This document shows positions 12,510-63,418 of a DNA stretch of 64,000 nt, in pieces. Under the pieces are notes generated by a model, which ran no database searches, was not told the DNA's origin, and worked only from the letters and a program-made list of their open reading frames with translations. Numbering within the stretch: the stretch's first letter is position 1; each line of letters starts with the position of its first letter. The DNA is from Gammaproteobacteria bacterium. Its GTDB lineage: Bacteria > Pseudomonadota > Gammaproteobacteria > Steroidobacterales > Foliamicaceae. The stretch lies in NCBI GenBank assembly GCA_965200225.1, contig CBDATM010000001.1:1681182-1745181 (forward strand), read 5' to 3'. Both the position numbers and the translations under genes were made by a program.

Positions 12510-12796
12510 AATTTTTCTCCTTTATTCAGTATGTCAAATAAACAAGGCTCGGATTAACAAGCGCATGTCGCTTGCCAACATGCCTCGCGCCAAACCTCTG
12601 CCGCCTATCATACTCCATTCCACTCCTCCCCCGATGCTTGGCAATATCAACAAGGATCGCGCGGCAACGTGCTGAACGCAGGCGAACGCAGCGGACACTA
12701 TGCCGGGCATGTAATTAGGTGAGATAATCGGGTTGCGAGGAACCAAGGATTGGGGCCAGCAAGCGTCGCGCGCCAGACGGCGTGGAGGAGGAACCG

Positions 12797-15118: not shown

Positions 15119-15132
15119 AGGACGTTCTGCCG

Positions 15133-17177: not shown

Positions 17178-17464
17178 AATTTTTCTCCTTTATTCAGTAT
17201 GTCAAATAAACAAGGCTCGGATTAACAAGCGCATGTCGCTTGCCAACATGCCTCGCGCCAAACCTCTGCCGCCTATCATACTCCATTCCACTCCTCCCCC
17301 GATGCTTGGCAATATCAACAAGGATCGCGCGGCAACGTGCTGAACGCAGGCGAACGCAGCGGACACTATGCCGGGCATGTAATTAGGTGAGATAATCGGG
17401 TTGCGAGGAACCAAGGATTGGGGCCAGCAAGCGTCGCGCGCCAGACGGCGTGGAGGAGGAACCG

Positions 17465-19786: not shown

Positions 19787-19800
19787 AGGACGTTCTGCCG

Positions 19801-46387: not shown

Positions 46388-46463
46388 TGGCTCCCCGGGC
46401 CGGACTCGAACCAGCGACCAATTGGTTAACAGCCAACCGCTCTACCTACTGAGCTACCGGGGA
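46388..46463 (-). tRNA. tRNA-Asn (anticodon GUU), CCA encoded
   Basis: The reverse complement folds as TCCCCGG-TA-GCTC-AGTAGGTA-GAGC-G-GTTGG-CTGTTAA-CCAAT-TGGTC-GCTGG-TTCGAGT-CCGGC-CCGGGGA-G-CCA. Confidence 0.9.
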
Positions 46464-50072: not shown

Positions 50073-50264
50073 CGCCACCGCGCGCCGGGCCTCAATACGC
50101 GCCGCGGCCCGTTCCGCCTGCTGTCGAGGATTGTCCGCCGGCACCAGCCGCGCGACAGGCTTGCCATATCGCGTAATCGTCACGCTTTCGCCGCGCGCAA
50201 CCCGGTCAAGCAGTTTTGGCAGATGAGTCCTGTCCGCACAGGCGCCGATATGATCCATGAGCAT
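50049..50264 (-). CDS. Phd/YefM-family type II antitoxin (orphan)
   Basis: 71 aa. [29 protein letters not shown] is the Phd/YefM core. Its last 8 codons are antisense to the uvrB 3' end, and there is no room for a downstream toxin. Confidence 0.65.
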
Positions 50265-50492
50265 TCCCTCTTCGGAGTCAGTCCAGGACGAACTATACGA
50301 CTATCGGACCGGGGTACGTGTTCTTGATCTCTGAGGCTTTGCATCTCGTGCATCGCGCAGCCCGCTCACGATTCGCCGGTGTTGTGCGTGCCGTACCGCG
50401 GACACTGGCTGCCGGCGCGCGGCGCTGGTCTGCAACCCCTTTCAGCCATGAGGCACGGTGCTCAAACTTCGTGGCGAACTGGGACCAGATAA

Positions 50493-51122
50493 CTATCCCG
50501 AAAAATAACTGCGCCGAAACAACCTGTCTGTCCGCCTTTTCCAGGTAATTCGGCACTCCACTGCACTGGCTGCAGCCGTTGTGGGAGGTCGAGCCTTGCT
50601 AACCGCTACGCCTTCGTGGCCTCCCCAGATTTTTGCGACCTGTTTGCCGTTCGTGTCTTCCTGCAATTCGACCCGGGTAACACAGCCGCCAAAGATCATC
50701 ATTCCATAGCGCAAGCTTTCGGTCTCCTTCGCATCTGTGGAGACATGCCACCATGCTTCGCAATAAATGACCGGGAACTCTTTGCTTGTGTTGGCCCTTC
50801 TGACCACCTTTTGCGCCAATCCCTCGTCGTCGAGCACGCGGAATCCGCAGGAAGCGCCGTAATGGCCGTCGTCTTCCCGCATGACGAAGAGATGCTCGCC
50901 TTCACCCTCGTTAAAATCCAGAAGCTGATTGCCTGCTTCATAGCGGTTCCGTTGCATTGTCACCGTGAACGGGACCGTGGAATAGCAGCGTCGTAAGGTA
51001 TCTTTTCTCTCGGTATCAAGCGGCCATTCCACGCGGACAAAACTGCTTGTCGGCGGTGGGCGCGCGTCTTTGTCCTTCTGCGCCTCAAGCCGTTCGCGTA
51101 GTTCCGCTGATACCTGCCTCAT
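50493..51122 (-). CDS. Hypothetical protein
   Basis: ORF 50493..51158. ATG 51122 gives MRQVSAELRERLEAQKDKD. No recognisable motif. It lies in the AT-richer island. Confidence 0.4.
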   Translation of the reverse strand: MRQVSAELRERLEAQKDKDARPPPTSSFVRVEWPLDTERKDTLRRCYSTVPFTVTMQRNRYEAGNQLLDFNEGEGEHLFVMREDDGHYGASCGFRVLDDEGLAQKVVRRANTSKEFPVIYCEAWWHVSTDAKETESLRYGMMIFGGCVTRVELQEDTNGKQVAKIWGGHEGVAVSKARPPTTAAASAVECRITWKRRTDRLFRRSYFSG

Positions 51123-51266
51123 GATGTTAGATGTAGATGATCTCGGCAATGTCCCCAAGCGGCCCTATAGACACACAAATCTCTTTCAAATTACGCCGTG
51201 GTGCCCGTGGCAACCACACGAACCGATACTCACTCTGATAGGCGTGCCGAAAGTGCTTGAGGAAAG

Positions 51267-52343
51267 CTAGGGCACCGCCTCGCCTTCATCGAAGCGGGAG
51301 AAGAAGGCTTTCCGGTCCACCCGATCAAGTGCGGCAGCCGTCCAATCCAGCACTTCGACCAGGTCTAGCGATTGCAGGCGCCCGGGACCGGAGAGTTGCT
51401 GAAACAGTGCTCGCAGCACCGGCGCGCGCAAATGCCAGACTGCTTCGTGCCAATTGAACTTTTCTTCGGGAGTTGGTGCTTTCCTTGCCCATAGCACCCA
51501 TGCAGAAAACACGCCGTAGAACAGGGTTTGCACCAGCGTCGAGCGGAAGAAGCGCGAGCCACTATCCCCCTTGAAGCGGATACCCAGCGCCTCCTCCAGC
51601 GCTGAACTCAGAGCATCGAGTTGTGGTGCGTCCCCCGCCGCCTCGACCCGCGCAAGCCCGTCGCGCGCGTAGGAGGCGAGTAGCCATGCCAGATCATTGG
51701 GCTCCGCCAGCGCTGCCCGATGCGACAACACACGCAACAGGTACTCGCCGAAACTCCTGGCGATTGTTGGGGCATCATCGCGCCCTTTGTTGGGAAGAAG
51801 GTCTTCGCCCGCACGATATTCGGCGGTGTCCTGACGAACTCTGCCGGCGAAGGCGCGCGGCTTTGCCAGATGCTCAAGAAATTCGCTTTCGCTTTCGGCC
51901 AACCGGAAGGATTCCAGCTTTACGGGTTGTCCGCTATCGTCTTCACCTATCAGCACGAAATCGCGCATGTTTGTTACCAGCACCTGACGATAGCGCTGCC
52001 AGTAGCGACTGACCTGATCGCCCTGGGCAGTGAGCCAAGCGTCGTTGCTCACCGACTTTATTTCCACCACGCCTCGCTCCGGCGTCTGCCCCTTTCGCGG
52101 CTCACGTCGTTGCAGTTGTTTCGCCGCGTATAGGCCGATATCAGGACGTCCCGCGCCTTGGTTGGCCAATTCTCGAACGCAGAAGACCTTCGGCTTGAGT
52201 ATCGCTCCAACTGCATTCAGCAAGTTCACCAGCGGAGCGGATAGCGACCCCTCCGCCGTCGCACCCCCTGATGCGCGGATTATTCGCAGGTCGTCAAGAT
52301 AGGTTGTGACCGCCTGAACAAGTTTTGATTCGGTTGCCGCCAT
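51267..52343 (-). pseudogene. N-terminal fragment of a type IIG/MmeI-like restriction-modification enzyme (nuclease + helical domains, methyltransferase missing)
   Basis: The PD-(D/E)xK-like motif is GRPDIGLY...GVVEIKSV. STLVQTLFYGVFSAWVLWAR resembles the conserved QT-x-YGLF helix. The ORF stops at ...FFSRFDEGEAVP, just before the point where the FYE-FL / SAM-binding module normally follows. Confidence 0.55.
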
Positions 52344-52408
52344 GCCCGCTTTATCGCCAATACTTCCGCATTATGCATTTGCGAGTGCTTGAGCGTGGCA
52401 CGCGATCT

Positions 52409-53234
52409 TCAGAAAAGCCTGTCCTGTGGGCTGATGGCCAACTCTCCGCCTTCTTGGTCTTGGATCAGCTGTTTCATTTTCAAATCGCGGATAGATTGGT
52501 TCAGGTGTTTGGGTAACCACGGTAGCGGAAGAAGAGCTTTTTGGAGATTTTCCTTTTTCGCTGCTCCTGATCCCAACTGCTCAAGCACCCAACTTCGCAG
52601 TTGTCCGAGGTCGGGCTCTCTTTCGATCAGGGCGAGTTGGTTTGGATTGTAGGAATTGAGGATGTAGAAGTCTCCGTCTGGACACGCTTTCCAGACGCAC
52701 TTCTTCATCAAGTCGCGCCCCTGCTTATGATTGGTCAGGTGAAGAAGAAAGCAACGCACTGCCTTGTTTCCGCGCATCATGCGAATATGTGTGCGCCATT
52801 TTGCGCCCACTCGTTCCATGAGCAAGCGTGCCGCCTCGTCGGCTCTTTCAACCGGGGAATCGAGCTTGGCGAGACCTTGCCAGTCTTCGCATCCGAATAT
52901 CTCATCCAAGTTGGATGCCTGACCATGATCCGCAGCGGGTCCCTGGCATATTGCCATGTCCAACTCCCTCCACATCACATTGACGAAGAGTTCCACATGT
53001 GAAAATTTCATCAACTTCTTCAGAAGCGACCAGGGTATATTGAATCCGTAGGGGTCTACGAAAATGAAAGCCGGTGCCATCTGCTTGTTTTGGCTTCTCA
53101 GGCGCTCAACCAACTTCTGAAGATATGTGAAAGCGTCCTCTGTTCAAGTAATCCCGAATGAGCTTGTGCTTGATACGCTGAAAGGGGCCGTAGTCTTCCC
53201 AGTAATGCGGCGTTGGGTCCTTGTAAGGTGCCAT
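52409..53234 (-). pseudogene. Three-Cys-motif partner protein TcmP, internally deleted and frameshifted
   Basis: ATG 53234 (RBS GGGAGCAAGG) gives MAPYKDPTPHYWEDYGPFQRIKHKLIRDYLN and then a stop at 53106. A second frame continues EDAFTYLQKLVERLRSQNKQMAPAFIFVDPYGFNIPW... to 52409. The central DxFAGxG-type region expected between the two parts is absent. Confidence 0.6.
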
Positions 53235-53247
53235 CCTTGCTCCCATT

Positions 53248-53973
53248 TCAGTGCGGCGGGAACTCGTCGTAGGTCCTGCCGTTCAGCGTGCGGCCGTTTT
53301 TGTGCTTGCGAACTCCGCCCCATTGCTTGAAGAAAAAAGGCACGCCGTCGCGTCGGCATTGTTCCAGGATTCTCAGCACCCAGCTTTCCCGCATGGGCCG
53401 AGCGCGGGGGCCGCTTTCTCCGCCCACGATGGCCCAATCAATGCCTCGAAGGTCGATTTCGCCAAGGTCTTCCAGAAGAGGTTCAATCGACAGGAAGCGC
53501 ACAGCAGCAGGCGTATCGCGCAAGGCTTCCAGGCGCGGGAGCCCCTGGTGCTGATTTTCCACGCTCACGCCGAACCACGCATTCGGCAGTTCCCCCATCC
53601 ACGAAAGCTTTCCGGTGAGTAACTCGCGCATGCGCTGGTGCCGTTTGGTCAGCACCTGATAGGTGTGGTGCGGAGTGCCTTGCATTACGCGCCCCACCTT
53701 GCCGATGTAGGCGTGCGGCACATCGGGATGAAACAGGTCGCTCATGGAGTTCACGAACACCCGGCGCGGCTTCCTCCAGCGATAAGGTTCTTCCAGCTTT
53801 GATGGGACGAGGAGAAGATCGAAGCCCTGTTCGAACGGGTGTCCCGCAACGCCCCGGAATCGCTCGGCGAACCGGTGGGCGTAGCAAAGCGCGCATCCTG
53901 CGCTGATCTTGGTGCAGCCTCGGACGGGATTCCAGGTTGCGTCCGTCCACTCGATTCTGCTGCCGTCAGCCAT
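53248..53973 (-). CDS. Phage Gp37/Gp68 family (DUF5131) three-Cys-motif protein
   Basis: 241 aa. Starts MADGSRIEWTDATWNPVRGCTKISAGCALCYA and contains FVNSMSDLFH...FLSIEPLLEDLG...DWAIVGGESGP...FFFKQWGG. Confidence 0.8.
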   Translation of the reverse strand: MADGSRIEWTDATWNPVRGCTKISAGCALCYAHRFAERFRGVAGHPFEQGFDLLLVPSKLEEPYRWRKPRRVFVNSMSDLFHPDVPHAYIGKVGRVMQGTPHHTYQVLTKRHQRMRELLTGKLSWMGELPNAWFGVSVENQHQGLPRLEALRDTPAAVRFLSIEPLLEDLGEIDLRGIDWAIVGGESGPRARPMRESWVLRILEQCRRDGVPFFFKQWGGVRKHKNGRTLNGRTYDEFPPH

Positions 53974-54086
53974 GCGCGTCCTCCTGGGCCAGTGGCGACT
54001 GCGCGCAGAATATGCCAGGAGCGCGATGGTCAGGAGTCATCACGGCACGTGAGGAAATCAGGCGGGTCAGGCAAGCCCTGCGTTCG

Positions 54087-54476
54087 TTATAACTTGATCA
54101 GCAGGGTAACAAGAAAGACGATCTGGGCAATGAGATCCCCGGTCCCGAACACTATGATGTTGCTCTGCAGTCGGTCAAGAGTGGCACCAAGCCGAGGGAA
54201 GCCTTTATCCAACCGATCGCAGCGCTCATGAAAGTACTTCCGATACCGATCGAAACATGCACCGACCTGCCGCCCAACTTGGCCGGAATGACTTCCGGTG
54301 GATTTCTCAAGACGATTGAGTCGTTCGCCGGTAGACTTCTCAAGCCGTTCAATATCCGCCCTGGTTGCGAGCTGCTTGCCTTGTTGATGAATGGTCCGGG
54401 CTATGACTTCGGCGGGTTTGCGCTCGAGACCGGCGGCTTCGATATCGTGCGATGTCAGCAAGATATCGAGTTCCAT
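54087..54476 (-). CDS. DUF1640-like tail-anchored coiled-coil protein, paralog 1
   Basis: 129 aa. MELDILLTSHDIEAAGLERKPAEVIARTIHQQGKQLATRADIERLEKSTGERLNRLEKSTG..., ending in the C-terminal hydrophobic anchor IIVFGTGDLIAQIVFLVTLLIKL. Confidence 0.7.
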   Translation of the reverse strand: MELDILLTSHDIEAAGLERKPAEVIARTIHQQGKQLATRADIERLEKSTGERLNRLEKSTGSHSGQVGRQVGACFDRYRKYFHERCDRLDKGFPRLGATLDRLQSNIIVFGTGDLIAQIVFLVTLLIKL

Positions 54477-54551
54477 GGCAACCTCCCTATAACGTTGTCA
54501 CCTGTAATGCGGCAGCAGCAGGATTGCCACTGCCATATGCTGCGCATTATA
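54477..54551 (-). promoter_or_regulatory. Conserved leader of DUF1640 paralog 1 (TATAAT block, 10-bp hairpin, RBS)
   Basis: The minus-sense reading is TATAAT GCGCAGCATAT GGCAGTGGCA-ATCC-TGCTGCTGCC GCATTACAGGTGACAACGTTATAGGGAGGTTGCC ATG. The hairpin arms are at 54511-54520 / 54525-54534 and the TATAAT at 54546-54551. Confidence 0.55.
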
Positions 54552-54820
54552 GCGCCCTCGCTAAATCCGGCCAGACAATTGACGTGGATGTAACTACAGG
54601 CGATATTGAAGCGGTGGGGGAGTTTGTGGGAGGCACAATGCTCTTCGCGGAAGGTGATGCCAGCCCGCTTCCCGGAGTGGCGGTCTTGGAATCCCCGGGC
54701 ATCGGAGTCGATCCCATGAACCGGTGGCTGAAAAATTTGCCTGCCGTGCGCCTCAAGTGGCAGCAGTAAAAGGCCGGCCAGCCCCGCGATTTTGGCGACA
54801 AACAATGAGGAGATCTCGAA

Positions 54821-55081
54821 ATGACCCAGAACGACAGCAACAAAAACAGCGAATCCCAGGTGCAGCAAGACATCCGCAAAAGCAAGGTGCGCGTATGCGT
54901 AACCTACCTGATGAGCCTGACTTACGCGGTAGCATCTCTTGGGCTTATTGCATCGCTGATGTGGCTGGAGAAATACGACTTGACTTTGGGCGTATTCTCT
55001 GGAGTAGCCTCTACAACAGCGGCGATATTCTCGTTCTGGTTTGGTTCACGAGGCGCTTCCTCGAAGAGCAATAGTCAATAG
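54821..55081 (+). CDS. Small two-TM membrane protein
   Basis: 86 aa. The RBS GAGGAG lies 8 nt upstream. Hydrophobic segments are VCVTYLMSLTYAVASLGLIASLMW and LGVFSGVASTTAAIFSFWF. It sits directly upstream of the KAP NTPase. Confidence 0.55.
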   Translation: MTQNDSNKNSESQVQQDIRKSKVRVCVTYLMSLTYAVASLGLIASLMWLEKYDLTLGVFSGVASTTAAIFSFWFGSRGASSKSNSQ

Positions 55082-55179
55082 TCGGACTCCTGCTAAACAA
55101 GACAAAACTTGAGGAAGGGTCGACCGGGAGCAATGGCAATGACACGTCCATACAAGTACAACGCCAAAGGAGCTATGCA

Positions 55180-56556
55180 GTGAGACTGGCCCCCAAACCC
55201 TTGGAGATAGGCGAAGAGGCTGGTTTTAAGGATACGGACCTGTTTGGTTACAAGGAGTTTGGCAAGCGGCTCGCCAACTTGGTTGAATCCCTGGAAGGAT
55301 CTTCGGTTGTTGCTTTTGACGGGCCTTGGGGAAGCGGCAAAACCACTTTCATTCTTCAGTGGGCAGGGTTGCTGCGAAAAAGAGGGGCCGCAGTGATTCG
55401 CTTCGATGCGTTCGAGAACGACCACCAGCATGACGCCTTCTTTTCACTGGCAGGCGAGTTTTTTGCATACGCTGACCAATCGGCAAACATAGGCGATGAG
55501 AGGAAAAAGGCCTTTGTCGAAAAAGCAGCGGCGGTCGGGAAGACTATAGGACTTGCAGGAATCCAGGCTGGAATCAATTGGGCCTCGGGAGGATTGCTGA
55601 ATCCAGACCTTGCAAAAATCACCGAGGATATCCGCAAGGCCTCACTTGACCGGATTAAAGAGTGAACTAAGGGGGCCGAGAAAGAGCGTAAGCTGGTAAG
55701 GGATTTTCGAGATAGTCTTTCGACCCTCGCGCAGGCCACGCAATCTCACGGAAGCCAATCTGAGGATGGGCAACAAAATGTGAGCAAGCCTCTCGTTTTC
55801 ATTATTGACGAGTTGGACCGGTGCAAACCGACCTTCGCCTTGAATCTGATTGAGCGCATCAAGCACCTGTTTTCCGTGGATGGGATCTGCTTCGTTCTGG
55901 TGGCCAATTTCAAGGCGCTGGAAGAGTCCATTTCAAGGACATACGGCCTGCATGACGCAAGAACTTGCCTGGAAAAATTCTGGCAGATTCGCGTTTGCTT
56001 GCCGGATGCACAGTCTTCGCATTTTTCTGACACCAACCGTGCTCGTTATATTGGGTATCTTCGCGAACATCTGAGTGAAATGCTCGGCCCATCTCCTTTC
56101 GAGACGCTGGAAGAATTGTCTAGAATCCAGGGTTGTTCTCTCCGAACCATGGAGCGAATATTTCTAAATCTCGCACTTGCTTACAACTCGGTTAACGTAC
56201 AAAAAAGAGAGTCGCGCTATCTCACGGAAATTGCTGTCGGGTTATGCGTGATGAAAACAATCGATCCAGAGCTGTACGAAAGGGCACGAACAGGCGCTAT
56301 TACACTCGCCGAAGCACGGAGTTTCATGAAATTTGAATCTTGGCGGGGGAGTCGGCAAGAGGATGTGGAGAATCTCTGGTTCTGTGCCGCGGCTACCGAC
56401 GACGAACTTTCTGCAGAGCCAGAACGTCTGGAGCGCTTCAAAACCGGGACCGAGACGTATCAAGACGGCGTAATCAGCAGAGACATTGAACAGCGCAGAC
56501 GTGATTTAATCCCGAAGACCTGTGGGCACATTGACGAGTTTTCCCAATACGATTAA
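55180..56556 (+). pseudogene. KAP-family P-loop NTPase interrupted by one in-frame TGA (55663-55665)
   Basis: The GTG start is preceded by AAAGGAG. Walker A is FDGPWGSGKTTF. The stop falls after ...LDRIKE, and the same frame continues TKGAEKERKLV...SKPLVFIIDELDRCKP (Walker B) to 56556. ORFs 55180..55665 and 55780..56556 share one reading frame. Confidence 0.7.
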
Positions 56557-56638
56557 GCACAGTCGGACACGCAATGAGGGACGCGCGGAGCGGCGCTGGC
56601 TGCCAGGATCAAAGGGCTATCGCCGCCTCGTTTCGGTT

Positions 56639-56932
56639 TTACTTGGAGATATGCAGCGTGATCTGCAGATCGCCGTCGAGCGCTGCGATCATCTTCATAA
56701 GGCGATCCAGCGTGATCCGTCCAAGCTCGGCATTTCGGATGCGTGAAAAGTCCTCTGCGGCGAAGCGGGTCCGGGCAACTGCTTTCGGCACCGAAAGCCC
56801 GCGGTCGTCCAGCGTCGCGATGATCCGCGCGGCAAGGACCGCCTTGGCCTGTTTCAGGTCTGCTTCGGGATCACCCATGTCGCGAAACACATTGCCGCTT
56901 CCTTCCAGCAGTTCGGAATCGTTCTCGTTCAT
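56639..56932 (-). CDS. XRE-family HTH antitoxin (HigA-2-like), orphan
   Basis: 97 aa. GSGNVFRDMGDPEADLKQAKAVLAARIIATLDDRGLSVPKAVARTRFAAEDFSRIRN...LDRLMKMIAALDGDLQITL matches the GNVFxDLG-type antitoxin pattern. Confidence 0.65.
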   Translation of the reverse strand: MNENDSELLEGSGNVFRDMGDPEADLKQAKAVLAARIIATLDDRGLSVPKAVARTRFAAEDFSRIRNAELGRITLDRLMKMIAALDGDLQITLHISK

Positions 56933-56970
56933 TGCAACAACTCCCGTTTCAATCGCGCCAACCGGCTTGC
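56929..56970 (-). pseudogene. 13-codon C-terminal stub of the cognate RelE/HigB-type toxin
   Basis: The minus-sense reading ...ASRLARLKRELLQ-TGA overlaps the antitoxin ATG (ATGA). Upstream of 56970 the sequence switches to the conserved 3' tail of DUF1640 unit 2. Confidence 0.5.
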
Positions 56971-57014
56971 GAGGAAATCAGGCGGGCCAGGTGGGCAGGC
57001 AAGCCCCGCGTTCG

Positions 57015-57404
57015 TTATAACTTGATCAGCAGAGTAAAGAGAAAGAGGATCTGGGCAATGAGTATTCCGGTCCCGAACAGTATGATGTTGGTCTGCAGTC
57101 GGTCAAGAGTGGCATCAAGCCGAGCGAAGCTTTTGTCCAACTGATCGGAGCGCTCACAAAAGCTCTTCTCAAACCGATCGAAACACGCACCGATCTGTCG
57201 TCCAACTTGGTCGGAATGACCTCCGGTGGATCTCTCAAGACGATGTAGTCGTTCGCCGGTAGACTTCTCAAGTCGTTCAATATCCGCCCCGGTTGCAAGC
57301 TGCTTGCGTTGTTCATGAATGGCCCGGGCTATGACTTCGGCGGGTTTGCGCTCGAGACCGGCGGCTTCAATGTCGTGCGATGTCTGCCAGATATCGAGTT
57401 CCAT
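57015..57404 (-). CDS. DUF1640-like tail-anchored coiled-coil protein, paralog 2
   Basis: 129 aa. MELDIWQTSHDIEAAGLERKPAEVIARAIHEQRKQLATGADIERLEKSTGERLHRLERSTG...IILFGTGILIAQILFLFTLLIKL. Confidence 0.7.
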   Translation of the reverse strand: MELDIWQTSHDIEAAGLERKPAEVIARAIHEQRKQLATGADIERLEKSTGERLHRLERSTGGHSDQVGRQIGACFDRFEKSFCERSDQLDKSFARLDATLDRLQTNIILFGTGILIAQILFLFTLLIKL

Positions 57405-57479
57405 GGCAACCTCCCTATAACGTTGTCACCTGTAATCCGGCAACAGCAGGATCGCTACCGCCGTGTGCTGTGGATTATA
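57405..57479 (-). promoter_or_regulatory. Conserved leader of DUF1640 paralog 2
   Basis: Same architecture as paralog 1. The hairpin is GGCGGTAGCG-ATCC-TGCTGTTGCC (arms 57439-57448 / 57453-57462) and the TATAAT is at 57474-57479. Confidence 0.55.
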
Positions 57480-57494
57480 GGGCCTTCGCAAAAT

Positions 57495-57791
57495 GAGGCG
57501 CTTGGGGACTGGCGAGGTGGTTGTTTGACGCAGGATCAGGCGGCGGCCTTGCTGGGGGTGAGCGCGCGGACGTTTCGGCGGTGGATGGTTCGGTATGGCG
57601 AGGACGGCATGGAGGGTTTGCGGGATCGCCGGGTGTCGCGGGCCTCGCACCGCGCGGCGCCGGTGGACGAGGTGATGCGGATGGTCAACCGGTATCGCAC
57701 GCCCCACGAGGGCTGGAACATTCGCCACTACTATTCCTGGTATCGGCGCGAGCGGGAAATTGAAATATGCAGGCCGTTGATTCAAAATTGA
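57495..57791 (+). mobile_element. N-terminal HTH fragment of an ISNCY-type (integrase-fold) transposase
   Basis: LTQDQAAALLGVSARTFRRWMVRYGEDGMEGLRDRRVSRASHRAAPVDEVMRMVNRYRTPHEGWNIRHYYSWYRRE is followed by a stop. There is no DDE catalytic domain and I saw no terminal repeats. Confidence 0.5.
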
Positions 57792-57816
57792 ACAGTCGCA
57801 TCCGGGAGCATGTCCA

Positions 57817-58509
57817 GTGACCAGAACTCGAACGCGCACGATCGACCCCCGAGACCTGCCCGCCTACACAATCTCGGAAGCCGCGCACTACTTGGCCGTG
57901 CCCGCGATGACCATTCGCTATTGGTCGGTGGGACGCGGCCACTACGAGCCGCTGATCGAAGCACCCGAAGGCAAGCCGCAGCTGCTCTCGTTTCTCAATC
58001 TCGCGGAACTTCATATCCTCGCCGCCATTCGGCGCAAGCACGGGGTGAAGATGCCGAGCATTCGACGGGCGATCCAGTACCTGGCGGAGGACACCTGGCA
58101 GGGCTTTCACACGCGCCACCCGTTGATCAGCCTCCAGCTGGAAACGGATGGCCTTGACCTGTTCACCGAGCGATACGGGCAGCTGGTCAATATCAGCCGG
58201 GAGGGCCAGATGGCCATGCGGCAGATTATCAGCGTGGCGCTCCGCCGGATCAGCCGCGACGCCGCCGGCGTCCCGATCAAGCTCTATCCGTTCACGCGGG
58301 CCGCCATGGACGACACGCCCACGACGGTCGTCATCGACCCGCGGCTCTCCGCCGGACGCCCCGTCATCAACGGCACCGGGCTTGCCACTGAAATCATCGC
58401 CGAACGCTACAAGGCGGGTGAATCCATCAGCGATCTGGCGCGTGACTACGAGCGCGGAAATGAGGAAATTGAAGAAGCGGTCCGGTGCGAACTCCAGGCC
58501 GCAGCTTGA
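57817..58509 (+). CDS. DUF433 antitoxin-like protein with N-terminal MerR-like HTH extension
   Basis: 230 aa. The N-terminus shows YTISEAAHYLAVPAMTIRYW. The C-terminal DUF433 core is DPRLSAGRPVINGTGLATEIIAERYKAGESISDLARDYERGNEEIEEAV. Confidence 0.7.
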   Translation: MTRTRTRTIDPRDLPAYTISEAAHYLAVPAMTIRYWSVGRGHYEPLIEAPEGKPQLLSFLNLAELHILAAIRRKHGVKMPSIRRAIQYLAEDTWQGFHTRHPLISLQLETDGLDLFTERYGQLVNISREGQMAMRQIISVALRRISRDAAGVPIKLYPFTRAAMDDTPTTVVIDPRLSAGRPVINGTGLATEIIAERYKAGESISDLARDYERGNEEIEEAVRCELQAAA

Positions 58510-58920
58510 ACCGACGCTTTTTCTTGATCGCAATCTCGGCAAGCGCTTAGTCGCGGATCGACTTCGCTCGGAGGGGATACCGGCGAGGTGCATGACGACC
58601 ACCTGCCGCTGGACGCGCCGGACGAGGATTGGATCGCGCTTGTCGGATCCAAGAGCTGGATTGCGATTACGAAGGACAAAAACGTTCGTTATCGATCCGC
58701 CGAGCACGAGTCGATACGCATCCATTCGGCGCGGGTTATCGTAATTCGCATGAAAAACGCAACCGGGTCAGACAACGCCGAACTGCTCGTGAAAGGATGG
58801 CGGAGAATCGTCCGGTTCGCGGCAAAGACGCCCCCTCCGTTCGTAGCCCGAATCAATCGGAGCGGCACAGTCAAACCATACGACATTCTGAAGCCTGCCG
58901 CCATCACAGACTCTAGCTGA
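58460..58920 (+). pseudogene. DUF5615 (PIN-like, Mut7-C-like) toxin candidate, frameshifted
   Basis: One frame reads ...LEPTLFLDRNLGKRLVADRLRSEGIPA up to about 58585. The rest of the domain, VHDDHLPLDAPDEDWIALVGSKSWIAITKDKNVRYR..., is in another frame from 58588. A 1-nt deletion in CCGGCG(G)AGGTG would explain the shift. Confidence 0.6.
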
Positions 58921-58956
58921 CAAAATCACCCCGCTTAATTTGTCACGCCCGGCCCC

Positions 58957-59085
58957 AAAGTATTTCCGATACTGATCGAAACACGCACCGATCTGTCGTC
59001 CAACTTGGTCGGAATGACCTCCGGTGGATTTCTCAAGACGATGTAGTCGTTCGCCGGTCGACTTCTCAAGTCGTTCAATATCTGC
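58957..59085 (-). pseudogene. Internal fragment (~43 codons) of a fourth DUF1640-like gene
   Basis: It encodes ...ADIERLEKSTGERLHRLEKSTGGHSDQVGRQIGACFDQYRKYF. It lacks both the start and the membrane anchor. The sequence is a mosaic of paralog-2-like and paralog-1-like stretches, and it abuts the stop of the AAA ATPase gene. Confidence 0.75.
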
Positions 59086-59090
59086 GCGGG

Positions 59091-60263
59091 TTATTCGCAT
59101 GGAGTGCGCAGGTCGATTTCGTGGATTCTGCGTAATGGAAGTGCGGTGATGTGGTCGGTTAGCGGATACTCTCGCTCTCCCGGATAGACCACCCAGAGAT
59201 GCTCGAGTCTCAGGTCGTCCATGACGATGTGCATGGACCGGGTAGTGCGGGGCGCGTCCGTGCATTTGAATTCGAATCCCCAACGCCGGCCGCGCCTGTG
59301 CAGCATGAGATCCAGTTCGGCGCCGCGCTGCGTTCGGTAGAACCAGGCGTCGCGCTCCCCGTGGGCGATCAGCGTTTGCTCCAGCGAGAATCCTTCCCAA
59401 CTGGCTCCGTAGCGGGGATGCAGGGGCAGCTCCTGCGCGGACCGGATGCCGAGCAGAAAGTGGAGGATGCCGCTGTCTCTGATGTACGTCTTGGGGGACT
59501 TGACCAGGCGTTTGCCCAGATTCTCGAACCACGGGGGCAGGATTCGCGCCATGAAGGTGCCAGCCAGGAGGTCGCGATAATGGTTCACGGCGGTTTCGCT
59601 CACGTCCATGGATCGAGCCAGCTCCGAGGCGTTCCAGGTTTGTCCGTGAAAGTGGGCCAGCATTCTCCAGAAGTGCGCCAGGGCTGTCGGGGAAACGCGC
59701 GATCCCAGTCCGGGAATGTCTCTTTCGAGAAACGTGCGGGAAAACCCGTCCATCCACCTTGTCCACGCGTTGCCGGACGGTGCCAGGAACGCGCGCGGAA
59801 AGCCGCCGCGCATCCACAACTGCTGCTGATTGCCGACCTCCGTTTCAGCGATGGAAAAACCGCCCGCTTCCACAAACTGAATTCTTCCCGCCAGCGTTTC
59901 CGACACGCCCCGGATCCGATCCAACGATGCGCTTCCCAGCAGAAGAAACACGGCCTTTCGTTGCGGATCGTCGCAAATCGGCCGCAAGAGCTCGAACAGT
60001 TGAGGCAACCGTTGCACTTCGTCCACCACCACCAGCCCCTCGCTGGCTCGCAACACCGTTTCCGGGATCGTGGAAAGGGCTTCCCGGGCGGCGGCTGTTT
60101 CGAGGTCGTAGAGCGTGGACGGCCCTTCCCAGGAAGCCATCACCTGTTGCGCGAGCGTCGTCTTGCCCACCTGTCGAGCGCCCAGGATCGCTACCACCGG
60201 CGCTTCATCAAGACCTCGCCGTATCGCTTCCAAAAGCCTGGGACGTTGAACAAGCCGCTTCAT
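59091..60263 (-). CDS. AAA+ ATPase with C-terminal DUF4143 domain
   Basis: 390 aa. Walker A is ILGARQVGKTTL and Walker B is LVVVDEVQRLP. The DUF4143-type region shows YIRDSGILHFLLG...RGAELDLML. Confidence 0.8.
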   Translation of the reverse strand: MKRLVQRPRLLEAIRRGLDEAPVVAILGARQVGKTTLAQQVMASWEGPSTLYDLETAAAREALSTIPETVLRASEGLVVVDEVQRLPQLFELLRPICDDPQRKAVFLLLGSASLDRIRGVSETLAGRIQFVEAGGFSIAETEVGNQQQLWMRGGFPRAFLAPSGNAWTRWMDGFSRTFLERDIPGLGSRVSPTALAHFWRMLAHFHGQTWNASELARSMDVSETAVNHYRDLLAGTFMARILPPWFENLGKRLVKSPKTYIRDSGILHFLLGIRSAQELPLHPRYGASWEGFSLEQTLIAHGERDAWFYRTQRGAELDLMLHRRGRRWGFEFKCTDAPRTTRSMHIVMDDLRLEHLWVVYPGEREYPLTDHITALPLRRIHEIDLRTPCE

Positions 60264-60456
60264 AATTGTCGTATATTCTACTTCTTGAAATGAATATTCA
60301 ACAATTATTTCGGTATATTATTTCGGTGCATTCTCGCTGAAAGGTGCATTCTGGCTGAAATATGAAAAACGACGCGAAAAGGTGCCATTACCCTGGGGCC
60401 GGCGCGAAATTTAATAAAACTTGAATCTTGGCGCGGGCCAGAAAGCCCTATGTTCG

Positions 60457-61056
60457 TTACGTATTCATGTTCATCAGCAGGGTAACCACCGCGGCGATCA
60501 GAGTAAGGATGAACGCGCTCCCGAATCCTATGATGGTCATAATCGTCTGGTTGAACCGGGTCTCAAGCCGGGCGTCAAGGCGTTCGACGGATTTCTCAAG
60601 CCGTCCGATATCCTGGTCAACCCGATCGAAGCGCTCTCCGGTCTCCCGGCGAAGTTGTTCGACATCCGCCTTGGTTGCTTTGCCAAGCTGTTCGACATCC
60701 GCCTTGGTTGCTTTGCCAAGCTGTTCGAGGTCCGCCTTGGTTGCTTTGCCGAGCTGTTCGAGGTCCGCCTTGGTTGCTTTGCCGAGCTGTTCGACATCCG
60801 CCTTGGTTGCTTTGCCGAGCTGTTCGACATCCGCCTTGGTTGCTTTGCCGAGCTGTTCGACATCCGCCTTGGTTGCTTTGCCGAGCTGTTCGACATCCGC
60901 CTTGGTTGCTTTGCCCAGTTGTTCGAGGTCCGCCTTGGTGGCGAGCGGTCTGCGGTGTTCGTGAATGGCCCGGGATATGGCTTCCGCGGGTTTGCGCTCC
61001 AGGCCGGCGGCTTCGATGTCGTGCGCCGTCTGCAAGGTATCTTGATCCAGTTCCAT
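60457..61056 (-). CDS. DUF1640-like tail-anchored coiled-coil protein, paralog 3, with expanded 11-residue repeats
   Basis: The start is at the internal Met 61056 (MELDQDTLQTAHDIEAAGLERKPAEAISRAIHEHRRPLAT). Nine KAD(V/L)EQLGKAT repeats follow. The C-terminal anchor is IMTIIGFGSAFILTLIAAVVTLLM. Confidence 0.75.
   Translation of the reverse strand: MELDQDTLQTAHDIEAAGLERKPAEAISRAIHEHRRPLATKADLEQLGKATKADVEQLGKATKADVEQLGKATKADVEQLGKATKADVEQLGKATKADLEQLGKATKADLEQLGKATKADVEQLGKATKADVEQLRRETGERFDRVDQDIGRLEKSVERLDARLETRFNQTIMTIIGFGSAFILTLIAAVVTLLMNMNT
60657..60942. repeat. 33-bp tandem repeat, 8 full units plus a partial one (coding)
   Basis: The unit GTTCGA(C/G)(A/G)TCCGCCTTGGTTGCTTTGCC(A/G)AGCT starts at 60657, 60690, 60723, 60756, 60789, 60822, 60855 and 60888, with a partial unit at 60921. 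Confidence 0.9.
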
Positions 61057-61128
61057 GGCAACCTCCTTATGTTGTCGCCTGTAATCTGGCAGCCGCAGGC
61101 TTGCTGCTGCCCAATGCCGCGCATTATA
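61057..61128 (-). promoter_or_regulatory. Conserved leader of DUF1640 paralog 3
   Basis: The hairpin is GGCAGCAGCA-AGCC-TGCGGCTGCC (arms 61088-61097 / 61102-61111, one mismatch). The TATAAT is at 61123-61128 and the RBS is AAGGAGG. Confidence 0.5.
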
Positions 61129-61214
61129 GCGGCCTCGCAAAATCCTGGCACTCTATAATTCAACGCAAGTTCCCACATATTTGAACGCAGGCTCCAACGG
61201 TTACGGTACCCAGT

Positions 61215-61961
61215 ATGAAATTCTTGCGGCTGATCCCACCAGCGCTATTGCTGCTGGCGCCCCTTGCGCTTTATTCCGACGAAGGTACGGATACGGAAGC
61301 TGATATTGTCAGGCTGAAGGAAAAATACGCCAATGCGGACGAAGTGCGGGTTACGCCGATTACGGGCCTTTACGAATTGCGTTTCGGATATCGGCTGGCC
61401 TACGTGGATGCCGAAGGCCGTTTCGGTTTCCTGGGGTCTGGCGACCTGGAGGACGTGGTAACCGGCGAGAACCTTTCCGAGCAGAGACGCGCCGCGGTGC
61501 GCCGCGAACTCATGGCAAGCCTGGACGAGTGGGACACGCTCGATTTCCTGCCGGATGAAACCACCCATCAACTTTTGGTGTTCACCGACGTGGATTGCGG
61601 ATACTGCCGCCGCCTGCATCAGCAGATGGCGGAATATCACCGCCTCGGCATTGGCGTGCGCTATGCGGCCTTCCCGCGTTCGGGTCCGGCCACGGACACC
61701 TGGACCGCCATGCAGTCGATCTGGTGCTCCGATAATCGCTCCGAGGCGTTGACCCGCGCGAAGACGGGTGGTTTCGTGCCGGAGCGCCAATGCGACTCGA
61801 TATCGGTGGAGCGCCACTACGAACTCGGTCGGCAGATCGGCCTCAGCGGGACTCCGGCGTTGCTTACCTCGGACGGGCGGCTTATTCCCGGTTATATCCC
61901 GCCAGCCCGTCTGGCGGCGATGCTCTCCGACAACGAAACCGGTAACGACCCTTCGGAATAG
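61215..61961 (+). CDS. dsbC: Thiol:disulfide interchange protein DsbC/DsbG family
   Basis: 248 aa with a signal peptide. The thioredoxin motif is VFTDVDCGYCRRLHQQM, followed by GTPALLTSDGRLIPGY. Confidence 0.85.
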   Translation: MKFLRLIPPALLLLAPLALYSDEGTDTEADIVRLKEKYANADEVRVTPITGLYELRFGYRLAYVDAEGRFGFLGSGDLEDVVTGENLSEQRRAAVRRELMASLDEWDTLDFLPDETTHQLLVFTDVDCGYCRRLHQQMAEYHRLGIGVRYAAFPRSGPATDTWTAMQSIWCSDNRSEALTRAKTGGFVPERQCDSISVERHYELGRQIGLSGTPALLTSDGRLIPGYIPPARLAAMLSDNETGNDPSE

Positions 61962-63060: not shown

Positions 63061-63138
63061 GAGGAGGGTGCTGGGTAGAGTGGCTGGGTAGAGTCGCTGA
63101 AAAAGGGCAGGAGCCGTCAATGGAGCGTTCGGGGACGG

Positions 63139-63222
63139 TGCCGGGAGCGAGACTCGAACTCGCACGGGTTTCACCCCGCCGGATTTTGAGTCCGGTGCGT
63201 CTACCAATTCCGCCATCCCGGC
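63139..63222 (-). tRNA. tRNA-Leu (anticodon CAA)
   Basis: The reverse complement reads GCCGGGA-TG-GCGGAATTGGTAGACGC-A-CCGGA-CTCAAAA-TCCGG-(long variable arm CGGGGTGAAACCCGTG)-CGAGT... with T-arm GCGAG-TTCGAGT-CTCGC and acceptor 3' strand TCCCGGC-A. CCA is not encoded. Confidence 0.85.
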
Positions 63223-63281: not shown

Positions 63282-63418
63282 GCAACCAGCGTCTGGCGCA
63301 ACAGGCTTCGGGCGCAACCAGCTTTCGGTGCAGCAAGCGTCTGGCGCACCAAGCTTCGGGTGCAACGAGTTCTGGCACAACAGGCGTCTGGCGCAACGGG
63401 CTTCTGGTGTAATGTGGC
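63282..63418. repeat. Degenerate 16-bp tandem array (about 8.5 units; alternating units give a 32-bp super-period)
   Basis: The units are GCAACCAGCGTCTGGC / GCAACAGGCTTCGGGC / GCAACCAGCTTTCGGT / GCAGCAAGCGTCTGGC / GCACCAAGCTTCGGGT / GCAACGAGTTCTGGCA / CAACAGGCGTCTGGC / GCAACGGGCTTCTGGT. Confidence 0.85.

What the first reader, a model, noticed from the sequence alone, without database searches (positions are those of the whole stretch)
54047..61150. Four copies of a DUF1640-like gene unit punctuate the island, and cargo modules are truncated exactly at unit borders
Three intact paralogs (54087-54476, 57015-57404, 60457-61056) and one internal fragment (58957-59085) all lie on the minus strand within 7 kb. 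Each intact unit (~0.53 kb for the first two) includes a conserved ~95-nt upstream leader. For units 1 and 2 it also includes a conserved ~45-nt 3' tail (GAGGAAATCAGGCGGG..GCAAGCCC.GCGTTCGTTATAA). The neighbouring modules end at these borders. The HigB stub stops at 56970/56971, where the unit-2 tail begins. The ISNCY HTH fragment begins within ~30 nt of the unit-2 upstream border. The fourth copy is cut on both sides and is a mosaic of paralog-1-like (QYRKYF) and paralog-2-like (ERLHRLE.STGGHSDQVGRQIGACFD) sequence. This pattern suggests recombination between the dispersed units has repeatedly deleted or exchanged the intervening cassettes. Alternatively, the DUF1640-like gene may be a recurring component that accompanies each incoming module. 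Either way it is a repeated, promoter-bearing gene family of unknown function that structures the island.
Basis: partly seen in the sequence, partly recalled or inferred. Interest (0 to 1): 0.6.

Follow-up and report, generated by a model that had tools for sequence, protein, structure and literature searches.

The report
Repeated DUF1640-like genes in decaying island
Three intact copies and one fragment of a small membrane-anchored coiled-coil gene (a divergent DUF1640/CCDC90-like family member) are interspersed among mostly broken defence, toxin-antitoxin and IS genes in an 11-kb insertion that related genomes lack; this looks like ordinary duplication and decay, not a new genetic mechanism.

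Summary
Four minus-strand copies exist: u1 54043-54573, u2 56963-57501, u3 60438-61150, and the internal fragment u4 58957-59092. There are no others in the window. Each intact copy is a full transcription unit: TATAAT box, ~90-nt leader, SD, ORF, short 3' tail. Truncated neighbours do abut the borders: a higB stub, an ISNCY fragment, the ATPase stop codon and, newly found, a 71-nt KAP-NTPase remnant.

The proteins are divergent DUF1640/CCDC90-like tail-anchored coiled-coil proteins. They fall below Pfam's threshold directly, but 46 of 50 profile-search relatives match PF07798. Their function in bacteria is unknown.

The units lie in an ~11.1-kb low-GC insertion between uvrB and dsbC. That site is empty in 5 of 5 relatives (UvrB 91-94% identical). 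Much of the cargo is broken.

The order unit-KAP-unit-...-KAP remnant-unit fits old tandem duplication of a [unit + KAP NTPase] block, followed by insertions and deletions. u1 and u2 differ by ~13% at synonymous, non-synonymous and non-coding sites alike, so their borders are real junctions.

Homologous recombination between units does not produce truncated cargo, and the truncations themselves define the borders. This is a new member of a known kind, of low to moderate interest.

The parts
50073..61152 (.). Accessory island of about 11.1 kb inserted in the uvrB-dsbC intergenic region. GC is 52-60%, against 62-70% in most of the rest of the window.
   Evidence: uvrB ends at 50072 and dsbC starts at 61215. 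In 5 of 5 relatives, uvrB is followed directly by dsbC after a ~100-170-nt gap. Alignment of the dsbC promoter places core homology from about 61153. GC profile.
54043..54573 (-). Unit u1 (type A): TATAAT box, ~90-nt leader with a 10-bp hairpin, SD GGGAGG, CDS 54087-54476 (129 aa), 44-nt tail.
   Evidence: An independent Logan contig (L004) is 100% identical over 53572-54508.
56963..57501 (-). Unit u2 (type A): same architecture, CDS 57015-57404 (129 aa), 52-nt tail with an 8-nt insertion.
   Evidence: 87.4% identical to u1 over 532 nt. Sequence. dN/dS against u1 is 0.74.
58957..59092 (-). u4: internal fragment of a type-A unit (codons ~38-82), with no leader, N-terminus, C-terminus or tail.
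   Evidence: 95% identical to u2 and 89% to u1. Informative-site pattern. Its 5' edge lies at the ATPase stop codon 59091-59093.
60438..61150 (-). Unit u3 (type B): leader, CDS 60457-61056 (199 aa) and a short tail. The N-terminal module resembles P0002/P0003, which are encoded elsewhere in the same genome.
   Evidence: A -35 GTGCCA / -10 TATAAT pair was found at 61151-61123.
60656..60939 (-). 8.6-9 tandem 33-nt repeats inside the u3 CDS, encoding 11-residue ATKAD(V/L)EQLGK units (nine ATKAD motifs).
   Evidence: TRF: period 33, 96% matches. D1 family. Motif count. Aligns to the ATKEDIEALRK repeats of PDB 6H9L.
56929..56970 (-). higB (RelE/ParE-type toxin) 3' stub of about 13 codons, with its stop overlapping the higA start (ATGA).
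56639..56932 (-). higA-like HTH_37 antitoxin, intact.
   Evidence: PF13744, E = 4e-17. Plasmid homologues are paired with a RelE/ParE toxin.
57504..57790 (+). ISNCY-family transposase fragment (profile positions 4-95 of 368), cut at both ends.
   Evidence: NF033594, E = 1.5e-13. BLASTP to a Mesorhizobium HTH protein.
55180..56556 (+). KAP-family P-loop NTPase (PADLOC candidate PDC-S20) with one in-frame stop at 55663-55665.
60367..60437 (+). 71-nt remnant of a second KAP NTPase gene (equivalent to residues ~367-390). It ends where the u3 tail begins.
   Evidence: D8 repeat. tblastn E = 1e-4. Local alignment score 49 against shuffles of 19.2 +/- 2.2, with 0 of 1000 reaching it.
59091..60263 (-). 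AAA_14 + DUF4143 ATPase (PADLOC candidate PDC-S01), apparently complete.
   Evidence: profile matched to position 417 of 422.
57817..58920 (+). DUF433/HTH_66 gene (57817-58509) and a frameshifted PIN_10 gene (about 58497-58920).
   Evidence: The frame-merged PIN sequence matches PIN_10 positions 1-82 of 84 at 66.8 bits, against 41.7 bits for the ORF alone.
52409..53973 (-). DUF5131 gene (53248-53973, intact) and its TcmP partner (52409-53113, matching only profile positions 120-262 of 263). Corresponds to PADLOC candidates PDC-M30/M41.
51267..52343 (-). N-terminal fragment of a type IIG restriction-modification enzyme.
   Evidence: PADLOC REase_MTase_IIG, profile positions 65-284 of 1096, E = 4e-5.

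Best explanation
The four copies are paralogues of a lineage-specific subfamily of DUF1640/CCDC90-like proteins. The protein has a small two-helix N-terminal head, a beta-layer motif (L-A-T-K/R-x-D), a coiled-coil stalk of variable length (1 to 9 ATKAD motifs among the five full-length paralogues compared) and one C-terminal membrane helix.

Each intact copy is a self-contained transcription unit: a -35/-10 promoter-like region, a ~90-nt leader, an SD, the ORF and a short 3' hairpin.

The copies sit in an ~11-kb foreign, low-GC island between uvrB and dsbC that close relatives lack. That island is decaying.

The alternating layout is best explained in three steps.
1. An old tandem duplication (or double acquisition) of a [unit + KAP NTPase] block. 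This gives the order u1 - KAP - u2 - ... - KAP remnant - u3, with all units in one orientation and both KAP sequences in the other.
2. A later duplication or whole-unit gene conversion that produced the u1/u2/u4 type-A set.
3. Insertions of toxin-antitoxin, IS and candidate defence genes, then illegitimate deletions whose end points now lie against the units and so define their apparent borders.

Shown: the copies, the borders, the family relationship, the empty site in relatives, the broken cargo and the KAP remnant.
Inferred: the order of events, and that the protein acts as a trimeric membrane-anchored scaffold, by analogy with the solved homologues.
For: Copies and sharp borders.

Family assignment:
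- Profile search gave 418 hits, with 46 of 50 aligned sequences matching PF07798.
- The A2 profile hits PDB 6H9L at E = 1.6e-6, and the wider A3 profile at 1.9e-23.
- The AlphaFold model has mean pLDDT 91 with helices 5-14, 19-34 and 39-128.
- There is a C-terminal hydrophobic helix, and the ATKxD motifs number 1, 1, 1, 2 and 9 across u1, u2, P0003, P0002 and u3.
- The beta-layer motif is described for DUF1640 in PMC4786415.

Island: uvrB is directly followed by dsbC in L011, L012, L013, L015 and L016. GC drop.

Decay of cargo:
- In-frame stop in the KAP NTPase.
- PIN_10 frameshift.
- IIG restriction-modification fragment.
- ISNCY fragment.
- higB stub.
- TcmP matching only positions 120-262 of its profile.

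A second KAP sequence abuts the u3 tail.

u1 against u2: dS = 0.146, dN = 0.108, and leader divergence is 13%. A simulation of 42 random substitutions gives P(ORF stays open) of about 0.2, and 28.5 expected amino-acid changes against 25 observed. Divergence since duplication is therefore close to neutral and uniform, so the homology edges are true junctions.

No inverted terminal repeats or target duplications were seen at the borders on reading by eye; this was not a formal scan. No Pfam, NCBIfam or PADLOC hit for an integrase or a complete transposase was found among the island ORFs scanned.
Against: - Only two of the three inter-unit slots carry KAP sequence, and the remnant is just 71 nt.
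- u3 and the KAP remnant are far more diverged (72-80%) than u1 and u2 (87%). u3 also has a different C-terminal half, so a single tandem-duplication history needs extra events.
- The upstream border falls within a few nucleotides of the same position in four contexts (u1, u2, u3, L001), and u3's border is flush with the island/core junction. Both would also fit a discrete element.
- The subfamily was detected only in this genome (u1-u4 plus P0002 and P0003) and in one partial MAG copy. It was absent from the 22-kb loci read in five relatives (one search covered three of these), and none of the three proteins the word-indexed search returned at E <= 1e-3 came from another genome. This pattern is unusual for a plain housekeeping paralogue.
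- The other genomic copies (P0002, P0003) could not be examined.
Confidence: 0.55

Rival explanations
1. Recombination scaffold. The dispersed direct-repeat units act as portable homology. Recombination between them, within the genome or with incoming DNA, repeatedly deletes or swaps the intervening cassettes.
For: - All units are in direct orientation with different cargo in every slot.
- Identical runs of 48 nt (u1/u2) and 56 nt (u2/u4) exist.
- u2-like and u1-like informative sites are clustered in u4.
- The family has two C-terminal types joined to a shared 5' module.
Against: - Homologous exchange does not truncate cargo at the unit edge, yet four or five junctions are illegitimate joins.
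- u3 shares identical runs of at most 14 nt with u1/u2.
- No strain with alternative cassettes was found, and five relatives have an empty site.
- The mosaic signal cannot be assigned to u4 rather than to a patch in u2.
Confidence: 0.2
2. Selfish or mobile unit. The ~0.53-kb unit is itself a spreading element, for example a non-autonomous mobile cassette or a type-I-toxin-like addiction locus that encodes a membrane protein under a structured leader.
For: - There are at least six copies in one genome. No copy lies within 10 kb of uvrB in the three relatives scanned, and the protein searches found close homologues only in this genome.
- Only one other copy was found among 185,579 species genomes, and only one distant relative in the metagenome scan.
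- The upstream end is sharp and shared in four contexts.
- The end of u3 is flush with the island/core junction.
- The unit carries its own TATAAT box and leader hairpins.
- All five paralogues hit a phage family, phrog_17872.
Against: - No terminal inverted repeats or target-site duplications were seen at the borders on reading by eye; no formal scan was run.
- No transposase or recombinase is associated with the units.
- There is no Rfam match.
- The hairpins show no covariation beyond shuffled controls, and their folding z-scores are only -1 to -2.
- At 112-199 aa with a soluble head, the proteins are unlike type I toxins.
- u1 and u2 look nearly neutral since they diverged.
- Nothing was found in the viral contigs.
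Confidence: 0.1
3. Functional partner of neighbouring defence genes. The tail-anchored coiled-coil protein is a membrane anchor or sensor subunit for the adjacent candidate defence proteins, especially the KAP NTPase. On this view it is retained beside them by selection.
For: - KAP NTPase sequence lies on the tail side of two units.
- Every slot holds a PADLOC candidate: PDC-S20, PDC-S01 or PDC-M30/M41.
Against: - Three plasmid KAP homologues have no DUF1640-like neighbour.
- PADLOC has no model that matches the unit proteins, apart from coiled-coil noise.
- Wider-family members lie in unrelated contexts.
- The resident KAP gene carries a stop codon while the units are intact.
Confidence: 0.1
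4. Assembly artefact. The repeats are products of mis-joined contigs in a metagenome-derived assembly.
For: Short-read contig L004 breaks inside the repeated leader, as repeats often cause.
Against: - The copies differ by 13-22% and have unique flanks.
- L004 reproduces the u1-DUF5131 junction at 100% identity.
- Collapsed or chimeric repeats would be identical to each other, and these are not.
Confidence: 0.03

Closest known systems
DUF1640 / CCDC90-like family (Pfam PF07798; MCUR1 and CCDC90B; prokaryotic homologue PDB 6H9L)
   Same: The architecture matches: head, beta-layer motif (aliphatic-A-T-K-polar-D/E), coiled-coil stalk and C-terminal membrane anchor. The ATKAD(V/L)EQLGK hendecads of u3 align with the ATKEDIEALRK repeats of 6H9L. 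Relatives found by profile search are PF07798 members.
   Different: The window proteins do not reach Pfam's own threshold. Their N-terminal head sequence (HDIEAAGLERKPAE) was found only in this genome, one MAG and, partly, one short distant metagenome homologue (L003). Type-A copies have a non-repetitive, Cys-containing stalk. The bacterial function is unknown.
Borrelia Bdr (Borrelia direct repeat) paralogue family
   Same: Both are multi-copy paralogues within one genome that sit on accessory or mobile DNA. Both have a variable number of short tandem peptide repeats, and both are of unknown function. bdr genes lie in regions reshuffled by homologous recombination (PMC3303823). A B. miyamotoi 18-kDa protein is annotated as DUF1640-domain-containing; that it is a Bdr protein is my assumption and was not checked. 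That Bdr proteins carry a C-terminal membrane anchor and 11-residue repeats comes from my own knowledge, not from a paper read here.
   Different: The NCBIfam Bdr model is not matched (13 bits against a cut-off of 40). The host and replicon type are different. This is an analogy, not demonstrated membership.
Long direct repeat (LDR) / type I toxin-antitoxin loci of E. coli (from my own knowledge, not from a paper or tool)
   Same: Both are repeated units of about 0.5 kb that each carry a promoter, a structured leader and a membrane-protein ORF.
   Different: Type I toxins are under 60 aa and come with an antisense RNA. Here the proteins are 112-199 aa with a soluble head, and no antisense RNA or Rfam family was detected.
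Defence islands or hot spots between conserved core genes
   Same: This is a low-GC insertion between two core genes, filled with restriction-modification, toxin-antitoxin and PADLOC-candidate genes, and it lacks an integrase.
   Different: The site is empty in all five relatives examined, so there is no evidence that it is a recurrent hot spot. In those relatives the variable region lies on the other side of uvrB.

Membership tests
DUF1640 / CCDC90-like (PF07798) | Score above Pfam's gathering threshold | tested here: not met
   u1 and u2 have no PF07798 hit. u3 scores 27.2 bits against a cut-off of 33.5.
DUF1640 / CCDC90-like (PF07798) | Homology to family members by profile search | tested here: met
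   An HMM of the five paralogues found 418 proteins at E <= 1e-3. 46 of the 50 aligned sequences match PF07798, and the precomputed Pfam label of most hits is PF07798.
DUF1640 / CCDC90-like (PF07798) | Beta-layer motif [aliphatic]-A-T-K-[polar]-[D/E] at the start of the stalk (Hartmann et al. 2016, PMC4786415) | tested here: met
   The motif reads LATRAD in u1, LATGAD in u2 (K replaced by G) and LATKAD in u3, P0002 and P0003. It is nearly invariant in the 50-sequence alignment.
DUF1640 / CCDC90-like (PF07798) | Head-stalk-anchor architecture with one C-terminal transmembrane helix | tested here: met
   The AlphaFold model (pLDDT 91) has helices 5-14 and 19-34, a break at 35-38, and helix 39-128. 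The Kyte-Doolittle 19-residue maxima of 2.1-2.4 fall at the C-terminus of all five paralogues.
DUF1640 / CCDC90-like (PF07798) | Sequence match to a solved family member | tested here: met
   6H9L is matched at E = 1.6e-6 (paralogue profile) and 1.9e-23 (wider profile). 6H9M (CCDC90B) is matched at E = 2e-6. The paralogue-profile match to 6H9L covers the stalk repeats only. Foldseek gave no significant match for the long-helix model.
DUF1640 / CCDC90-like (PF07798) | Homotrimeric assembly | not testable with these tools
   Only a monomer was modelled. 6H9L was deposited with three chains.
Borrelia Bdr family | Match to the NCBIfam Bdr models | tested here: not met
   Bdr_N_group1 scores 13.2 bits against a cut-off of 40, E = 0.058, and for u3 only.
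Type I toxin-antitoxin locus | Small (<60 aa) hydrophobic toxin plus a cis- or trans-encoded antisense RNA | tested here: not met
   The proteins are 112-199 aa with a soluble head. There is no Rfam family in 53900-61300 at E <= 1. The PepG1 hit is only 18.7 bits against a cut-off of 70. Antisense transcription itself was not testable.
Transposable element / MITE | Terminal inverted repeats, target-site duplication, or an associated transposase | tested here: not met
   The border sequences of u1 and u2, read directly by eye, show no TIR or TSD. No inverted repeat pairs the unit ends. The only transposase sequence is a 95-codon ISNCY fragment outside the unit.
Integron gene cassette | Promoterless ORF with an attC site next to an integron integrase | tested here: not met
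   The units carry their own TATAAT box. The tail does not fold into a stable imperfect palindrome (z = +0.4 to -1.1). No integrase was found among the island ORFs scanned.
tRNA-integrated genomic island | Integration at a tRNA 3' end with an integrase and flanking direct repeats | tested here: not met
   The island lies between the uvrB stop codon and the dsbC promoter. The tRNA genes are at 46388-46463 and 63137-63222, outside it.

The most novel reading that the evidence does not exclude
The ~0.53-kb unit may be an autonomous, self-propagating module. On this reading a promoter-bearing gene for a tail-anchored coiled-coil protein spreads within a genome and seeds or organises accessory islands. 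Its end is flush with the island/core junction, the upstream end is the same in four contexts, and at least six copies occur in one genome but none in the relatives examined. It might act as an addiction or exclusion factor, or as a membrane partner for KAP-type defence NTPases.
Probability: 0.1. Interest if true: 0.6.

Novelty: new member of a known kind. Interest (0 to 1): 0.27.

Why it matters
Bacterial DUF1640/CCDC90-like proteins are widespread. They occur on phages, plasmids and conjugative elements and as multi-copy families in some genomes, and a structure has been solved, yet no bacterial function is known. This locus is a compact natural example. It shows paralogues with 1 to 9 stalk repeats, two C-terminal types on one shared head and leader, and placement among candidate defence genes. 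That could guide experiments on what the family does.

As a genome-architecture claim it is modest. The pattern is explained by duplication, insertion and deletional decay in an accessory island. It does not reveal a new mechanism of island assembly.

Tried and rejected
- Rfam scan of 53900-61300 at E <= 1 found nothing.
- Leader hairpins: 95% of cells pair, but shuffled controls reach the same value, only one pair changes on both sides, and sliding by -3 still pairs 78%. Folding z-scores are -1.1 to -2.0. A conserved RNA structure is therefore not demonstrated.
- The 3' tail is not a canonical terminator. It has no T-run, the tail folding z-scores are +0.5 to -1.1, and the scanner found no terminator there.
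- Searches for more copies mostly failed. The genome-contig scan gave one partial copy (L001) and the metagenome-contig scan gave one distant 72-aa relative (L003). The viral-contig scans gave none by DNA pattern or by protein.
- P0002 and P0003, paralogues elsewhere in the same 2.57-Mb contig, could not be located.
- Foldseek of the AlphaFold model against the PDB gave no significant match, as expected for a single long helix.
- KAP-DUF1640 partnership: three plasmid KAP loci have unrelated small neighbours.
- Cargo of the island was compared with the variable regions of relatives, and no homology was found.
- An L014 contig that shares a 34-aa ATPase-like peptide turned out to be an unrelated prophage-like contig.
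- Pfam scans of the u1 upstream spacer ORFs (54569-54885) and of ORF 50493-51158 found nothing.
- I tested the idea that u3 (5' part) plus u4 are the two halves of one unit split by insertion of the ATPase. I rejected it because the u3 N-terminus is type B, like P0002/P0003, whereas u4 is type A.

Full report
**What is there**

ORF listing, repeat finding and blastn of each unit against the whole window confirm four minus-strand copies and no others.
- u1 (54043-54566) and u2 (56963-57494) are 87.4% identical over 532 nt.
- u3 shares only a 5' module (60917-61145, 78-80%) and its extreme 3' end with them.
- u4 (58957-59092) is an internal fragment, 95% identical to u2.

In the sense orientation each intact unit reads as follows:
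- a weak -35 region;
- a perfect TATAAT box;
- a ~90-nt leader that can form a 10-bp hairpin and a 6-bp stem around the SD;
- GGGAGG followed by ATG;
- the ORF;
- a short G+C hairpin 3' of the stop codon.

The same leader and N-terminal coding region occur in one other organism, a gammaproteobacterial MAG contig that ends inside the gene (L001). It is 77.5% identical to u3.

**The protein family**

u1 and u2 have no direct Pfam hit, and u3 is below threshold for PF07798 (27.2 bits against 33.5). A profile of the five paralogues was built from the three window copies plus P0002 and P0003, which are encoded elsewhere on the same 2.57-Mb contig. It retrieved 418 proteins from 1.84 billion representatives. 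Of the 50 sequences then aligned (u1, u2, P0002, P0003 and 46 of the best hits), 46 match PF07798.

Several features agree with this assignment.
- All five paralogues compared have the beta-layer motif described for DUF1640 by Hartmann et al. (PMC4786415).
- All have a C-terminal hydrophobic helix.
- The AlphaFold model has a head of two helices, a break and one long helix, with mean pLDDT 91.
- The paralogue profile hits the solved prokaryotic homologue 6H9L. Its ATKEDIEALRK repeats align with the nine ATKAD(V/L)EQLGK hendecads of u3.

The number of ATKAD motifs is 1, 1, 1, 2 and 9 among the paralogues, so stalk length varies. There are two C-terminal types: type A (u1, u2, u4) and type B (u3, P0002, P0003). 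All five also hit phrog_17872, a phage family of unknown function. The label 'DUF1640-like' is therefore right, and the bacterial function remains unknown.

**Where the units sit**

UvrB homologues of 91-94% identity come from Candidatus Foliamicus-like genomes. In all five relatives examined, uvrB is followed directly by dsbC, ferredoxin and NUDIX, exactly as on the two sides of this region. Window 50073 to about 61152 is therefore an 11.1-kb insertion. Its GC content is 52-60% against 62-70% in most of the rest of the window, and no integrase was found among the island ORFs scanned.

Alignment of the dsbC promoter region places the island/core junction within about 3 nt of the u3 upstream border.

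Much of the cargo is broken:
- an N-terminal fragment of a type IIG restriction-modification enzyme;
- a TcmP partner matching only profile positions 120-262 of 263;
- a KAP NTPase with an in-frame stop at 55663-55665;
- a higB gene reduced to about 13 codons;
- a 95-codon ISNCY transposase fragment;
- a frameshifted PIN_10 gene;
- u4 itself.

The intact genes are DUF5131, higA, DUF433, the AAA_14/DUF4143 ATPase and u1-u3.

**Borders**

Identity between u1 and u2 drops from 80-100% to random within about 20 nt at each end. Within the unit, divergence is uniform: dS = 0.146, dN = 0.108 (dN/dS 0.74 overall; 0.44 in the head and 0.90 in the stalk), and 13% in the leader.

A simulation of 42 random substitutions keeps the ORF open in about 20% of trials. 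It yields 28.5 amino-acid changes on average, against 25 observed. Divergence since the u1/u2 split is therefore statistically compatible with neutrality. It follows that the edges are genuine junctions, not the limit of selective constraint.

- The higB stub begins within 8 nt of the end of the u2 tail.
- The ISNCY fragment starts at most 10 nt from the u2 upstream edge.
- The 5' edge of u4 is the ATPase stop codon.

I add two more. A 71-nt remnant of a second KAP NTPase gene (60367-60437, plus strand) ends where the u3 tail begins; its alignment score is 49, against 19.2 +/- 2.2 for shuffles. And the u3 upstream edge is flush with core DNA.

**Interpretation**

Homologous recombination between direct repeats yields clean deletions and hybrid repeats. 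It does not yield cargo genes cut at the repeat edge. All the truncations therefore require illegitimate joins. Since the u1/u2 homology ends wherever either flank was replaced, the coincidence of 'border' and 'truncation point' is largely built in.

Some exchange between type-A copies is plausible. In u4, nine u2-like informative sites and one isolated u1-like site occupy the first ~120 nt, and five u1-like sites fall within its last 14 nt. Identical runs reach 48-56 nt. Even so, the recombinant copy cannot be identified. u3 shares runs of at most 14 nt with the others.

The order along the plus strand is u1, KAP, (higA), u2, (IS fragment, DUF433-PIN), u4, (ATPase), KAP remnant, u3. All units point one way and both KAP sequences point the other way. 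This is most simply read as an old tandem duplication, or double acquisition, of a [unit + KAP NTPase] block. A more recent duplication or conversion among type-A copies followed, and then insertions and deletional decay.

This history is inferred. The KAP remnant is short, and u3 with the remnant is much more diverged than u1 and u2.

**Alternatives**

*A mobile or selfish unit.* This is suggested by lineage-specific amplification: at least six copies here and one partial copy in a MAG. No copy lies in the 22-kb loci read from the relatives (one search scanned three of them), and the protein searches found close homologues only in this genome. It is also suggested by the shared upstream end in four contexts. 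Against it:
- no inverted ends or target duplications were seen on reading the borders by eye;
- no associated recombinase was found;
- there is no Rfam match;
- there is no covariation support for the leader hairpins;
- the protein is unlike type I toxins.

*A functional partnership with KAP NTPases or other defence genes.* This is not supported outside the window. Three plasmid KAP loci lack such a neighbour. In five loci from three contig contexts, wider-family members lie between dnaG and rpoD, in a tandem triplet after a type II secretion operon, and inside a conjugative T4SS element.

*Assembly artefact.* This is unlikely. The copies differ by 13-22%, and an independent contig reproduces the u1-DUF5131 junction exactly.

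**Comparison with known systems**

The proteins belong, at the superfamily level, to DUF1640/CCDC90-like (MCUR1, CCDC90B, 6H9L). The closest biological analogy is the Borrelia Bdr family. That family also has multi-copy paralogues with variable tandem peptide repeats on prophage-plasmids, in regions reshuffled by homologous recombination (PMC3303823). A B. miyamotoi 18-kDa protein is annotated as DUF1640-containing; that it is a Bdr protein is my assumption. However, the NCBIfam Bdr model is not matched, so this is an analogy only.

**Verdict**

The feature is a lineage-specific expansion of a known, functionally uncharacterised family inside a decaying accessory island. It is a new member of a known kind, of low to moderate interest.

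The main limitation is that the rest of the source genome, including the other paralogues, could not be examined.

Noticed in passing
window 12782-16515 and 17450-21183: A two-gene pair is tandemly duplicated with 4668-nt spacing. The pair is a 778-aa YcaO cyclodehydratase and a 460-aa ThcOx/nitroreductase-like oxidase, and the ORF lengths are identical in the two copies. It looks like a duplicated azole-type RiPP maturation cassette.
   Followed up: partly
window 60367-60437 (+): A 71-nt remnant of a second KAP-family NTPase gene lies between the ATPase start and the u3 tail. It is about 73% identical to 56279-56349 of the resident KAP gene.
   Followed up: yes
window 55663-55665: A single in-frame stop codon splits an otherwise full-length KAP NTPase (PADLOC candidate PDC-S20) into ORFs 55180-55665 and 55780-56556, which are in the same frame.
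   Followed up: yes
window ~58497-58920 (+): The PIN_10 toxin gene downstream of the DUF433 gene is frameshifted near 58585. Merging the two frames restores a match to PIN_10 profile positions 1-82 of 84 at 66.8 bits, against 41.7 bits for the ORF alone.
   Followed up: yes
window 61156-61199: Compared with five relatives, the dsbC promoter region carries a 22-nt insertion that looks like a diverged tandem copy of the TATAAT..ACGCAGG segment. It lies directly next to the island junction.
   Followed up: partly
window 60325-60360: Two tandem 18-nt repeats (GGTGCATTCTCGCTGAAA) sit in the AT-rich region just upstream of the AAA_14/DUF4143 ATPase start. They may be an operator.
   Followed up: no
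window 63282-63407: About eight tandem 16-nt repeats (GCAACAAGCTTCTGGC) lie 60 nt from tRNA-Leu(CAA) at 63137-63222.
   Followed up: no
L011, L012, L013, L015 (relatives), upstream of uvrB: In the relatives, the variable region holding restriction-modification, toxin-antitoxin, nucleotidyltransferase and integrase genes lies on the other side of uvrB, beyond the aminotransferase gene. In L013, where both flanks are visible, it lies between the aminotransferase and mscS genes, near where the window has tRNA-Asn. It is not at the uvrB-dsbC site.
   Followed up: no
L008 7463-9225: In an unrelated 5.5-Mb metagenomic genome, three DUF1640/CCDC90-like genes lie in tandem directly after a type II secretion operon. 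This shows that local multi-copy arrays of this family occur elsewhere.
   Followed up: no
L005-L007 8001-8396: A 131-aa family member is conserved between dnaG and rpoD in three related contigs, followed by an unannotated gap of ~0.8 kb. Defence-type genes (DUF2326/MC6/HNH_2, ThsB_TIR, SLFN/AlbA_2) lie nearby.
   Followed up: no
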